Below are positions 2,404 through 57,719 of a DNA stretch of 64,000 nt, piece by piece. How positions within the stretch are numbered: position 1 is the first letter of the stretch; the number at the start of each line of letters is the position of its first letter. The stretch is from Eledone cirrhosa. Lineage: Eukaryota. A program made the translations under genes and the position numbers. The stretch lies in contig OZ024741.1 of assembly GCA_964016885.1 (NCBI GenBank), positions 53,754,001-53,818,000 on the forward strand. The letters are read 5' to 3'. Under the pieces are notes generated by a model. It saw nothing but the letters and a program-made list of their open reading frames with translations. It was not told the DNA's origin and did no database searches.

Positions 2404-2713
2404 TTGGGATTCTTTTCTTTGTTTTTGTGCCTCTCTCTTGTTCTGTCCTACGCCATCTTGTTTTTGTGTGTCGTATATATATATATATATATATACATAT
2501 ATATATATATATATATATTAGGTATAGGATTACCCAAGATGTAGTAATGGTTAATTACTACACTGGATAAGGTTGTCGTACGGTGAGAGGTTACTCTACG
2601 AGTTATGGAAGAATTGTTGAAGAAACTTAGTTCCTGATCCTTCTGTATTCCGGAGTGTATATAAAGAATGAATAATAACAGGTAGACATCATAAAAAGGT
2701 AATTTATTCCGTG

Positions 2714-2825
2714 TGCTTACAAATGTTTCCACGGTGGTACTACAGCCTAGTTATGCTATGTGCAAATTTACAAGTATTTGCAGAACTCAAATATCCAATG
2801 CTGTGACCACTGTATCCTCAGAGCA
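2714..2825 (-). ncRNA. Type I hammerhead ribozyme with extended stem II in the PLE family 1 pseudo-LTR (intact copy)
   Basis: UGCU-CUGAGGA-UACAGUGGU...ACCACCGUG (stem II 85 nt in total)-GAAA-CAUUUG-UA-AGCA. Confidence 0.7.
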
Positions 2826-3315
2826 AAATGGTAAAATGTACAATGTAAATACCCTTAAGTGGGGTTGTTGGGGAAGATAGAGTAGAAAAGGATGAGAGAA
2901 AAGTAGGGGAGAGGGAGAGAGAGAGAAAGATATGCAGGGGTTGGAGAAGTAGGAGAGAGTGTTTTGTAGATATCTTAATCAAAATGTTATGGTAGGGGTT
3001 TTATTATACTGGTTACTTTTGGAGAGATGCGTTGATAGTTAAGGTCTGAATTATTTATTGCCCCAGAGGGCAGGTTGATAGATGTAGAGAGGGAGGTAGG
3101 CCAAAGGCGAGATATAGAGAGTGTAATGGATGTAGAGTGAGAGATAGCGAGAGGACAGACGAAGTTTATGTGGTGAGTGAACTTTGGGTTTGTAGTAGTA
3201 ATCTGTGAATTGCACTAAGTTACCATTTATAGTGATAAGCAGTGTATTGTCTTGTAGTGTGAGGGAAGAGAAGGTGGTTAGCTAGAAAGCGATGTTATAG
3301 TTACGGGTTCGAATG

Positions 3316-4023
3316 TTAAGTTATTTTATAGTGAGAGAATTTAGCTTTTAGTTTGTGGTTGCAGTATAATGATCGTTCAATTCTATCGTTAAGTAGTTTG
3401 TTTTGGGATTTTAATATGTAAATGAGTTCAAGGTTACATAACCTGCAGTACTTCAATCCACTCCGATATGCACTTGCGCTGGAAAGTATATTCCATTTTA
3501 AGGTGAACCGTTGGTTGCGTTCACGGAGTTGCCAGGTCTTGTTGGCGAGCGTAGTCACAAAACGGTGATTAGGATGTTTGATTGAGAATCGATGACGGTA
3601 CCAGCGAGATTTAAACGAGGTGGTGGTAGATCCGATATAATACCATTTCTGGTCGTTCGATTTAATCGTGCATTAGTAAACAATGTTGGACTTTAGGCAT
3701 TCATTCTTCAATGGACATCTTTCAGGTAGATGGCAATTACATTCTTTGTTGTGGGTAGCGGGTATACCATGGATAGGTTGCGATAGCGGTACAGGTGGAT
3801 TGTGTAATACCCGTCTCCCATTTAGTGGTTGGGAGGCAGATATTACGTTCTGCCCATCTGTTACTAAAATGTTTTGTTTTGTAGAGTTGTTTAATTGCGT
3901 TAAGTTAAGTTTTTTTTATGTATGCTTCAAGGTTAGGTGCCGTGGAGTATGATAGTCTAATAGTTTTAGAGTTCAGAATTTTGCTCTATTTATGGGAACT
4001 AGGGAAATGTTTGTTGATTATCT
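3316..4023 (-). pseudogene. PLE linker + GIY-YIG endonuclease, left arm (in-frame stops)
   Basis: IINKHFPSSHK*...SNIVY*CTIKSNDQKWYYIGSTTTSFKSRW...CRLCNLE...LLNDRIE...CNHK. Confidence 0.85.
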
Positions 4024-4712
4024 ATTTCCCTAGTTCCCATAAATAGAGCAAAATTCTGAAATCTAAAACTATTAGACTATCATACTCCACGGCACCAAAC
4101 CTTGAAGCATACATAAAAAAACTTAACTTAAGGCAATTAAACAACTCTACAAAGCAAAACATTTTAGTAACAGATGGGCAGAACGTAATATCTGCCTCCC
4201 AACCACTAAATGGGAGACGGGTATTACACAATCCACCTGTACCGCTATCACAACCTATCCATGGTATACCCGCTACCCACAACAAAGAATGTAACTGCCA
4301 TCTACCTGAAAGATGTCCATTGAAGAATGAATGCCTAAAGTCCATTGTTTACCAATGCACGGTTGAATCGAACGACCAGAAATGGTATTATATCGGATCT
4401 GCCACCTCCTCGTTTAGATCTCGCTGGTACCGTCATCGATTCTCAATCAAACGTCCTAATGACCGTTTTGTGACCACGCTCGCCAACAAGACCTGGCAAC
4501 TCCGTGAACGCAACCAACGGTTCACCTTAAAATGGGATATAGTTTCCAGCGCAAGTGCATATCGGAGTGGATTGAAGTACTGCAGGTTATGTAACCTTGA
4601 ACTCATTTACATATTAAAATCCCAAAACAAACTACTTAACGATAGAATTGAACGATCATTATACTGCAACCACAAACTAAAAGCTAAATTCTCTCACTAT
4701 AAAATAACTTAA
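4024..4712 (+). pseudogene. PLE linker + GIY-YIG endonuclease, right arm; resembles the Hydra-type C-terminal-EN clade
   Basis: CxCx5CP linker, IVYQCTV...YYIGSATSSFRSRWYRH, CRLCNLE, LLN...CNHK. Upstream frameshift and stop. The clade call rests on recalled motifs and the (TA)n target, not on a phylogeny. Confidence 0.85.
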
Positions 4713-5202
4713 CATTCGAACCCGTAACTATAACATCGCTTTCTAGCTAACCACCTTCTCTTCCCTCACACTACAAGACAATACACTGCTTATCACTATA
4801 AATGGTAACTTAGTGCAATTCACAGATTACTACTACAAACCCAAAGTTCACTCACCACATAAACTTCGTCTGTCCTCTCGCTATCTCTCACTCTACATCC
4901 ATTACACTCTCTATATCTCGCCTTTGGCCTACCTCCCTCTCTACATCTATCAACCTGCCCTCTGGGGCAATAAATAATTCAGACCTTAACTATCAACGCA
5001 TCTCTCCAAAAGTAACCAGTATAATAAAACCCCTACCATAACATTTTGATTAAGATATCTACAAAACACTCTCTCCTACTTCTCCAACCCCTGCATATCT
5101 TTCTCTCTCTCTCCCTCTCCCCTACTTTTCTCTCATCCTTTTCTACTCTATCTTCCCCAACAACCCCACTTAAGGGTATTTACATTGTACATTTTACCAT
5201 TT

Positions 5203-5310
5203 TGCTCTGAGGATACAGTGGTCACAGCATTGGATATTTGAGTTCTGCAAATACTTGTAAATTTGCACATAGCATAACTAGGCTGTAGTACCACCGTGGA
5301 AACATTTGTA
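5203..5310 (+). ncRNA. Hammerhead ribozyme of the right arm, lacking the 3' strand of stem I
   Basis: Identical to 2714-2825 up to GAAACAUUUGUA; the next 28 nt are deleted. Confidence 0.65.
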
Positions 5311-55629: not shown

Positions 55630-56372
55630 CTGAATTCTAATCTGTTGCTGATTTGTATGTTAAATTTGCCAATAGTATTCCTTCTTTTATTCTAAGGTTG
55701 TCTCAATTCCTGACCTTGGCTTCACTAGTGACTGTTATGTCTTTGCATTTGTCGAAGTGTTTCCTGAAGGAGGATGCATATGTATTGAGATGTACTTTAA
55801 TTCTCATGTGAAGAGGTTTAACGGTACTACCGATGTCAAAATCCCCGCATTTGTCGCATTGAATGCGGTATATCACGTATGCTCAATGGTACACCTCTGT
55901 GTCACTTATATGGGAGTTTGCCAGTGTGCAATGGCTGATGTTATCACGGATCGTTTTTCGATGGGAGTTCTCGCAGTGAATTGCTCGGGTGGGGCTAATT
56001 GTATATCTAGTTCCTCATTGTGAATCTCTCTATCGATCGCCGTGGTTATATTTTCACTGACGTTAGTAGCTTCAGTAAGCAGTTGTTGGAGGGGGTCCCC
56101 TATTTCCGGCGCTACGGAACCCTAAGACGACTCACGGTGGATGCTGGGTATCCATTGATTTTAAGTACCTCCTAGAAATGTTCCTCCACCTTGTTGCGGA
56201 TGCATGTAAGTTCAGTCCTCTTGTATCAAGTTTTAGGACCGAGGGAGAGAGCCGATTCATAATGGACAAATACGTCTCTGCAGGCAACATTCATGTAGAC
56301 GTTAGTATAGATTTCACATTTTACCGTTAGCCTCAGTTGGGAGTCGAGCATTCGTAAGATGTAATGATGTAA
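55630..56372 (-). pseudogene. Penelope-like element of the CCHH-type GIY-YIG group (RT thumb + endonuclease), degenerate
   Basis: Minus-strand translation not in the ORF track: VIYRIQCDKCGDFDIGSTVKPLHMRIKVH...SFRKHFDKC...LRIKEGILL (from 55876 down). Upstream, LRMLD...VY...DVFVHYESAL resembles the PLE RT thumb. Confidence 0.75.
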
Positions 56373-56723
56373 CTCTCTCTCTCTCTCTCTCTCTCTCTCT
56401 CTATATATATATATATATATATATATATATATATATATATATATATATATATATATATATATATATATATATATATATATATATATATATATATATATAA
56501 ACAATTAAGTTAAAAATGTACATCTACATATGCATACTGAAATACTAGTATGCATATGAATACACACACGTATACATATGTAGATGTACCAAGTCTTTCA
56601 CTGGTTACTTTACTGTGAGTATCCAGCTATTCTGTATGTAAACACACAGACAAACCGGTTTTTAGAGTCATACTGGTTTTTGAGGAAACACCTTTCCTCT
56701 ATTCTCCAGAAAGCCAGACAAGG

Positions 56724-56768
56724 AATATTGAACTAGTTTCGTTGTTGTTACAACTCATCAGCAATATT
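56724..56768 (-). ncRNA. Minimal type I hammerhead ribozyme (mirror copy)
   Basis: Exact reverse complement of 57061-57105. Confidence 0.9.
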
Positions 56769-57060
56769 TACCTATCTACCGGCCTTTCTGGAGAATCGTA
56801 AAAGCACATATCGTTATATGCTTTTTCTATGAAAATTAGTAGTGGGCAGACTAATTTGCATAGAGTGTGAGTACGTACCGGTTCAACGGAGACGATAAAA
56901 ACAAATAACGAAACGAAATTAAATTTCGTTTCGTTTGTAACTCACTTTTGTATGACTGACGCTTTCTATGCAAATTAGTCTGCCCACTACTAATTTTCAT
57001 AGAAAAAGCATATAACGATATGTGCTTTTACGATTCTCCAGAAAGGCCGGTAGATAGGTA

Positions 57061-57105
57061 AATATTGCTGATGAGTTGTAACAACAACGAAACTAGTTCA
57101 ATATT
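57061..57105 (+). ncRNA. Minimal type I hammerhead ribozyme
   Basis: AAUAUUG-CUGAUGA-GUUGU.AACA.ACAAC-GAAA-CUAG-UU-CAAUAUU. Perfect stems I and II, palindromic stem III AACUAGUU. Confidence 0.9.
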
Positions 57106-57719
57106 CCTTGTCTGGCTTTCTGGAGAATAGAGGAAAGGTGTTTCCTCAAAAACCAGTATGACTCTAAAAACCGGTTTGTCTGTGTGTTTACATACAGAAT
57201 AGCTGGATACTCACAGTAAAGTAACCAGTGAAAGACTTGGTACATCTACATATGTATACGTGTGTGTATTCATATGCATACTAGTATTTCAGTATGCATA
57301 TGTAGATGTACATTTTTAACTTAATTGTTTAAGCGTCAGTCATACAAAAGTGAGTTACAAACGAAACGAAATTTAATTTCGTTTCGTTATTTGTTTTTAT
57401 ATAGATATATTTATATATATATATATATGTGTGTGTGTGTGTGTGTGTGTGTGTGCGCGCGTGCGCGCGCGCGTGTGTGTGTGTGTGTGTGTGTGTGTGT
57501 GTATGTGTGTGTGTGTTTGTGTGTGTGTATGTGTGTGTGTGTGTGTGTGTGTATGTGTGTGTGTGTGTGTGTGAATATAAATAAAATATATGTAGCAACA
57601 TACATGATAATTACACTGATATACATAAAGAAATATCATATGCTAAATATACACCCATACATACATAAACGTACATACATACGTGCATACATACATACAC
57701 AATGTGGAAGACATCCATA

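What the first reader, a model, noticed from the sequence alone, without database searches (positions are those of the whole stretch)
2519..57400. Recurrent integration pattern: back-to-back palindrome with one full 3' arm and one arm ending at a fixed internal TA
Seen in seven insertions from four families: 2519-5340, 9174-9381, 16586-16782, 49254-49438, 49612-49930, 50077-53027 and 56499-57400. Both 3' ends point outward into (TA)n. One arm carries an extra tail (~140 bp family 1, ~80 bp family 2, ~210 bp family 4, 70 bp in the 56.5-kb element). The other stops where the long arm has a TA-containing motif (CTTTATATAC, TTCCTATTA, TTTATAAAA, GTTTAAGC). In family 2 this stop point recurs in four independent insertions with short arms from ~55 bp to ~1.4 kb. 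Known: PLEs form inverted, 5'-truncated insertions and have tails. Inference: both ends of a (TA)n break prime cDNA synthesis, one at the RNA end and one at an internal TA, and the two cDNAs join at their 5'-truncation points.
Basis: partly seen in the sequence, partly recalled or inferred. Interest (0 to 1): 0.7.

Follow-up and report, generated by a model that had tools for sequence, protein, structure and literature searches.

The report
Penelope inversions pair two start sites
These mirror-image insertions are ends of Penelope-type jumping genes, and across the genome they almost always pair one end that keeps a short tail with one that stops at a fixed point before it, likely because both sides of the cut DNA each start a copy at a different fixed site and the two copies are then joined, which would explain how these elements make inverted repeats.

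Summary
The seven structures are real 3' ends of Penelope-like elements (PLEs) in (TA)n. Families 1 and 2 are autonomous with Hydra-clade motifs. The 56.5-kb element is a 466-bp hammerhead-bearing tandem unit. In 350 loci from the same genome plus the window, each family has two fixed 3' ends: tail end (T) and tailless end (S). Of 238 inverted insertions with both ends assigned, 230 pair S with T. The tailless arm often reaches further 5' than the tailed arm, and some pairs share no sequence, which one folding-back copy cannot produce. Asymmetric junctions show excess microhomology (28/37 vs 260/1063 simulated). This supports two cDNAs primed from opposite target strands and then joined. Corrections: T is also an internal TA site of a tandem unit, not a demonstrated RNA end; family 4's tail is about 90 bp, not 210. 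The architecture, the two start sites and L1 twin priming are published; I did not find the pairing rule in five searches of an incomplete library. Two unreviewed notes of this scan reached the same reading on other DNA of this genome.

The parts
2519..4023 (-). Family 1 PLE, tailed arm (T end at 2519; tail about 2519-2660); 3' part of the ORF with GIY-YIG endonuclease (frame 3316-3672) and 3' UTR
   Evidence: 96.8% to natural copy L127
4024..5342 (+). Family 1 PLE, tailless arm ending at S (CTTTA|TA); open frame 4047-4712 with CxCx5C linker, YIG, CxxC, CxH
9173..9383 (.). Family 2 short S/T insertion: T arm 9173-9315 (minus), S arm 9312-9383 (plus); both 5' ends at the family's truncation hot spot
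16586..16783 (.). Family 2 short S/T insertion: S arm left (minus), T arm right (plus)
19016..19156 (+).
49254..49438 (.). Older family 2 short S/T insertion
49612..49931 (.). Family 4 inverted insertion; T arm 49668-49931 with hammerhead motif; left arm stops 212 bp before T, atypical for the family
50075..53030 (.). Family 2 long S/T insertion: S arm 50075-51456 (minus), T arm 51446-53030 (plus); 5' ends 180 bp apart on the element
56498..57399 (.). 466-bp tandem-unit family (retrozyme-like, hammerhead core CTGATGA..GAAA): S arm 56498-56964 is one full unit, S to S; T arm 56965-57399

Best explanation
These are insertions of Penelope-like retroelements into (TA)n that pair a tailed end with a tailless end, likely because both strands of the cut target prime reverse transcription at two different fixed TA sites on the element RNA and the two cDNAs are then joined head to head. 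Shown here: two fixed 3' ends per family; S/T pairing; largely independent 5' ends; junction microhomology and filler; both ends are internal sites of a tandem unit. Taken from published in vitro work on another PLE: both strands are cut and extended, and two internal start sites bound the tail. Inferred: one protein copy serves each strand and each site (hence one S and one T); the 2-6 nt of TA at each site anneal to the target; the cDNA 3' ends are joined by microhomology-mediated repair. An insertion with only one arm results when the other cDNA is too short or never starts.
For: Two end points: 282 of 288 TA-abutting 3' ends in two bins; 109 of 113 in the families not anchored on an end. 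Pairing: 230 S/T, 5 S/S, 3 T/T among 238 of 286 inverted junctions with both ends assigned; by hand, two of the S/S calls are local duplicates. In family 1, sampled without regard to ends, 21 of 21 are S/T. From coordinates alone, 19 of 31 S hits of the 466-bp family face a T within 5 kb, 0 of 31 face an S, 0 of 100 T face a T. Tailless arm reaches >30 nt further 5' than the tailed arm in 5/18, 26/142 and 12/26 simple insertions of families 1, 2, 4; the tailed arm lies within the tail (starts at or after S-10) in 3, 12 and 5. Family 1 arm ends are uncorrelated (Spearman -0.11, n=18). Microhomology of 2 nt or more in 28 of 37 asymmetric junctions without filler vs 260 of 1063 simulated (Fisher p=2e-10); 21 of 58 have filler, several templated. 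TA runs on both flanks in 149 of 153 rows (a few insertions appear twice). Arms share minority variants more than random copies do (family 2: 117 vs 32; family 4: 60 vs 11). PMC11167929.
Against: No biochemical test and no empty-site comparison (one search showed no contig spanning the site). Many junctions are near-symmetric (101/142 in family 2, 12/26 in family 4), as fold-back predicts. In family 2's short class this equals the permutation expectation (35 vs 34.5 within 30 nt; 19 vs 15.2 within 5 nt, p=0.08). A small excess remains elsewhere: family 1, 2 vs 0.4, p=0.05; family 4, 12 vs 6.3, p=0.002, with a biased query; long family 2, 2 vs 0.27 within 5 nt, p=0.03. S/S and T/T do occur (about 3 each). 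21 junctions had an end at neither site and 27 ran off the locus. PMC11167929 saw no difference in start site between strands, which does not by itself predict strict pairing. Shared variants may only reflect one subfamily active at a time; family 1 gave no power (n=6).
Confidence: 0.75

Rival explanations
1. Fold-back or self-priming: one cDNA, or an antisense transcript, snaps back at a short palindrome and is copied until it reaches S (the reading of PMC3846280).
For: Near-symmetric centres are common, and some sit on natural short palindromes (L014, L056, L140, L206, L159). Small excess of symmetric pairs.
Against: Cannot give a tailless arm longer than the tailed arm (43 of 186 simple insertions) or arms without overlap (20 of 186). 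Symmetry in family 2's short class is matched by permutation. It may still account for a minority of copies.
Confidence: 0.07
2. Both arms start at T, or a longer intermediate forms, and the endonuclease then cuts the element's own double-stranded DNA at the TA of S ('EN-mediated resolution', PMC8557442).
For: S is a TA motif that a (TA)n-specific endonuclease could cut. This gives S/T asymmetry directly. PMC11167929 reports cleavage within the element's own AT-rich pLTR.
Against: Solo S-ended insertions exist without any T arm (14 S vs 2 T among family 1 solos; 11 of 80 S-anchored family 2 insertions). PMC11167929 mapped both tail boundaries as RT start sites. It still needs two cDNAs for the cases with a longer S arm.
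Confidence: 0.1
3. Dual priming: two separate RNA-protein particles each prime one target end and choose a start site independently.
For: Arms overlap by up to kilobases, which two RNAs explain without strand displacement. In family 1 a long T arm often pairs with a short S arm.
Against: Independent choice predicts about half S/S or T/T; observed 8 of 238. In family 2, arm lengths are coupled (72 short/short, 6 long/long, 3 mixed; p=6e-7). Two RNAs held in one asymmetric complex are not excluded and fall under the best explanation.
Confidence: 0.05
4. Artefact or coincidence: chimeric assembly, or two unrelated insertions side by side in one (TA)n.
For: Palindromes and (TA)n are hard to assemble.
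Against: Arms have diverged; junctions are direct, without (TA)n; ends are fixed across hundreds of copies and pair S with T.
Confidence: 0.02

Closest known systems
EN+ Penelope-like elements: inverted 5'-truncated pLTR plus optional tail (PMC3846280, passages and Discussion; PMC8557442, passages and section 11)
   Same: Head-to-head inverted copy, tail on only one end, partial tandems, hammerheads, (TA)n targets.
   Different: Tails here are 68-143 bp rather than 30-40. Those papers explain the structure by self-priming or endonuclease resolution and give no count of end pairing in the passages read.
PAc (Anolis Poseidon) in vitro reaction (PMC11167929, parts 1-2 of 4: main text and start of Methods)
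   Same: Both strands cut and extended; two internal start sites bound the tail; dimer predicted.
   Different: PAc starts at a site without homology to the target, whereas both sites here carry 2-6 nt of TA. The paper does not link the two sites to inverted insertions. It found no role for hammerhead cleavage; family 2 here has a cluster of 5' ends at a predicted cut.
L1 twin priming and proposed dual priming (PMC2837659, passages)
   Same: Second target strand primes an inverted cDNA at an internal RNA site; internal junction with microhomology.
   Different: In L1 the second site varies and the arms do not overlap (inversion with deletion). Here both sites are fixed, 68-143 nt apart, and arms usually overlap to form palindromes.
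Animal non-LTR retrozymes (bioRxiv 10.64898/2026.07.22.740005, passages; PMC7229834, search listing only)
   Same: The 466-bp family is a non-coding tandem unit with a minimal hammerhead.
   Different: Here it is dispersed, very young (40 of 40 listed top hits 100% over 241 bp), and follows the same S/T rule as autonomous PLEs. Its mobilising partner was not identified.

Membership tests
EN+ Penelope-like elements | Single ORF with RT and GIY-YIG endonuclease | tested here: met
   L127 holds a 747-aa open frame with a YRDD RT motif (by eye) and C-terminal YIG. Atlas look-alikes at 0.95-0.99 include clusters with GIY-YIG (31-50% of members) and RVT_1 (92%). Local Pfam and PDB gave no significant hit.
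EN+ Penelope-like elements | Partial tandems forming pLTRs; inverted 5'-truncated copy; optional tail | tested here: met
   L127, 15 of 20 loci, L181.
EN+ Penelope-like elements | Hammerhead ribozyme in the pLTR | tested here: inconclusive
   Core CTGATGA..GAAA with stems by eye in families 4 and 466-bp; CTGAGGA..GAAA in family 1 with a doubtful stem I; core deviates in family 2. No Rfam match at gathering score.
Hydra clade (families 1, 2) | RWK and DKT motifs, CxCx5C linker, CxxC and CxH near the end of a C-terminal EN | tested here: met
   L127: RWK 9, DKT 87, CxCx5C 607, YIG 641, CxxC 705, CxH 733. Family 2 shows RWR, DKT, CxCx5C, YIG, CxxC, CxH by eye. Definition from PMC8557442 section 11.
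Hydra clade (families 1, 2) | Insertion into (TA)n | tested here: met
   149 of 153 rows with TA runs on both flanks (end-anchored sets are selected for TA on one side).
Hydra clade (families 1, 2) | Placement within the clade on an RT tree | not tested
   No reference sequences were on hand. Units of 3.16 and 3.54 kb exceed the 'generally <3 kb' of the paper.
L1-type twin priming | Inversion with non-overlapping arms and internal deletion | tested here: not met
   Most arms overlap; only 20 of 186 simple insertions have the T arm confined to the tail. It works like twin priming but is not the L1 product.
L1-type twin priming | Target site duplication around the inverted insertion | tested here: inconclusive
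   Hidden in (TA)n; one inverted copy shows an apparent duplication of about 33 nt (L288) and one solo about 14 nt (L024), both read by eye.
Non-LTR retrozymes (466-bp family) | Expression as circular or multimeric self-cleaving RNA | not testable with these tools

The most novel reading that the evidence does not exclude
Twin priming is the built-in, normal route of Penelope-like integration: one dimer holds a single RNA cassette, one subunit starts at T on one target strand and the other at S on the opposite strand, so the tail is the ruler between the two active sites; cDNAs run off together at the RNA's 5' end or at the hammerhead cut and are joined by microhomology.
Probability: 0.4. Interest if true: 0.75.

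Novelty: new variant of a known kind. Interest (0 to 1): 0.55.

Why it matters
How PLEs make their inverted repeats and one-sided tails is called unresolved in PMC8557442 and left open in PMC11167929. A near-strict rule of one tailed and one tailless end, with independent 5' ends, picks one model over published self-priming and can be tested directly in the existing in vitro system. It also explains thousands of palindromes in this genome (23,288 exact T-end junctions of family 2 alone) and bears on using PLE proteins for gene insertion. The elements themselves are ordinary PLEs.

Tried and rejected
Rfam scan of the window: no match. Pfam and PDB for the ORFs: nothing significant. RNA evidence for a start or cut site: no RNA holder listed. 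Empty-site test with contigs of three runs of one sample: no piece spans the site. Genome-wide T:S counts from exact patterns (family 2: 23,288 vs 340; 466-bp family: 2,066 vs 670) were rejected as a ratio, because the S patterns catch one sequence variant and the 466-bp S end spreads over about 5 nt. An apparent hot spot of 5' ends in the 466-bp family and in family 4 was discounted because the query forced arms to cover a given stretch. The first table dropped insertions with identical coordinates and missed short arms, so it was replaced; still rest on it. Arm-kinship test in family 1 had no power (n=6). No complex prediction was run. Literature searches that did not turn up a twin-priming model for PLEs: (open PMC and bioRxiv only; the 2005 and 2006 PLE reviews cited in those papers were not read, and no supplements were opened).
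Full report
Setting. The window is G000:C2:53754001-53818000 of a 3.0-Gb genome, rich in (TA)n. I compared the window with 350 loci of the same genome. Positions on an element are given on natural reference copies: family 1, L127 (unit 3163 bp); family 2, L033 (3540 bp); family 4, L154 (last 354 bp); the 56.5-kb family, L181 (466 bp). 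T is the tailed 3' end, S the tailless one.

Observation. All seven structures exist at the stated places, head to head, with both 3' ends at (TA)n. Six are S/T pairs at the family's standard ends. The family 4 copy is the exception: its left arm stops 212 bp before T, seen in 1 of 44 TA-abutting ends, while 25 of 44 stop 80-99 bp before T. An eighth family 2 copy at 19016-19156 has no inverted arm.

What the elements are. Families 1 and 2 are autonomous PLEs. [quoted passage not shown] Its RWK, DKT, CxCx5C, CxxC and CxH motifs match the Hydra clade as defined in PMC8557442 section 11; no tree was built. Pfam and PDB were silent; Atlas look-alikes include GIY-YIG and RVT_1 clusters. The 56.5-kb element is a non-coding 466-bp unit in young head-to-tail arrays with a minimal hammerhead motif. 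For family 4 I found a hammerhead motif but no ORF within 1.5 kb upstream in the 3 loci read.

The tail. In all three families where tandems were found, T is not a terminus of the unit. Family 1's tail ends 5 nt before the ORF's ATG. Family 2's T runs on into the next unit in 15 of 20 loci. In the 466-bp family the sequence simply continues round the unit. So S and T are both internal TA-containing sites, 143, 80, about 90 and 68 nt apart.

Two fixed ends. Of 288 TA-abutting 3' ends at 85% identity or more in the first 220 loci and the window, 282 fall in the T or S bin. In the three families whose queries lay upstream of both ends the figure is 109 of 113.

Pairing. Among 286 inverted junctions, 238 had both ends at T or S: 230 S/T, 5 S/S, 3 T/T; 21 had one end at neither site and 27 ran off a locus. 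By hand, two S/S calls are local duplicates, and a few S/T rows are too (L090/L311/L312). End-anchored sets agree. Of 80 S-anchored family 2 insertions: 64 face T, 2 face S, 3 other, 11 solo. Of 30 T-anchored: 17 face S, 1 faces T, 11 solo, 1 edge. Coordinates alone give the same for the 466-bp family. Independent choice of site would give about half like-with-like.

Fold-back fails as the general route. A single cDNA that folds back can only recopy what it holds. Yet the tailless arm reaches more than 30 nt further 5' than the tailed arm in 43 of 186 simple insertions (more than 100 nt in 21), and in 20 the tailed arm lies within the tail, so there is hardly any palindrome. Family 1 arm ends are uncorrelated. 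Near-perfect palindromes dominate family 2 because its 5' ends pile up at unit positions 3397-3408; permuting partners reproduces the symmetry in that class. A small excess of symmetric junctions remains in other sets, so some fold-back is not excluded.

The central joint. Among 58 asymmetric junctions at 88% identity or more, 21 have filler and 28 of the other 37 have 2 nt or more of microhomology, against 260 of 1063 in simulation. Several fillers repeat nearby sequence (L095, L106, L062). From general knowledge, not a call, this is the signature of polymerase-theta-type end joining.

One template or two. In end-anchored family 2 insertions arm lengths are coupled: 72 short/short, 6 long/long, 3 mixed. 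Arms share minority variants more than random copies do. Both fit one RNA cassette serving both arms, but also subfamily or age structure. Family 1 shows less coupling. This step is open.

A side result. 14 of the 35 family 2 5' ends between 3420 and 3470 lie at 3441-3445 (p=2e-6, window chosen after seeing the data), and position 3442 follows a GUC in a hammerhead-like arrangement. In L069, L085 and L222 both arms stop there. This hints that cleaved sense RNA served as template, unlike the in vitro result for PAc, but the family 2 core deviates from consensus and Rfam found nothing. The main pile at about 3401 could be a transcription start or an RT stall; no RNA data were available.

Mechanism. 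The endonuclease likely cuts both strands in (TA)n. One 3' end anneals by a few TA bases at T and the other at S. Each primes a cDNA towards the RNA's 5' end. The two cDNA ends are joined by microhomology and the gaps are filled. If one cDNA is tiny or absent the result looks like a solo; tailed arms of only about 9-40 bp occur (L256, L261, L251). Confidence 0.75 for two target-primed cDNAs at two fixed sites; 0.4 for the single-RNA dimer version.

Known and new. The inverted copy with a one-sided tail is described in PMC3846280 (passages, Discussion) and PMC8557442 (passages), explained there by self-priming or endonuclease resolution. Twin and dual priming are described for L1 (PMC2837659, passages). 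Searches found no paper joining these into a pairing rule for PLEs, but the library lacks most subscription papers and no supplements were read. Two unreviewed notes of this scan on other pieces of this genome give the same reading; I saw them after and do not count them as support. Verdict: real, ordinary elements; a known architecture with a newly quantified rule that makes an open mechanistic question testable.

Noticed in passing
window 56498-57399; genome-wide: The 466-bp hammerhead unit is a very young, dispersed family with tandem arms of up to at least four units and at least 2,066 exact T-end junctions. Its mobilising PLE is unknown.
   Followed up: partly
family 2, unit positions 3397-3408 and 3441-3445: Two piles of 5' truncation points; the second coincides with a predicted hammerhead cut, the first may be a transcription start or a stall.
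   Followed up: partly
family 1 loci L091-L140: Solo insertions end at S far more often than at T (14 vs 2), unlike family 2; S may be the first-primed site in this family.
   Followed up: no
L288 and L024: Apparent target site duplications of about 33 nt and 14 nt in impure TA tracts, read by eye.
   Followed up: no
L127, 5' junction: A family 1 partial tandem is fused at its 5' end directly to a short family 2 inverted stub.
   Followed up: no
window 57647-60066, 41678-42071, 690-1077: Fragments of a LINE-like element with RT and C-terminal nuclease-like frames (57647-58123, 59076-59516), present in several copies; label by eye.
   Followed up: no
window 48748-49200: Open frame resembling the 3' end of an RTE-type LINE (label recalled).
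   Followed up: no
window 24256-27864: Tandem array of about 3.6 kb with units near 70 bp and strong GC skew.
   Followed up: no
window 7394-7567, 22152-22286, 28250-29531, 40857-41045, 54829-54921: Dispersed short repeat of 90-170 bp in both orientations, SINE-like.
   Followed up: no
   Followed up: no
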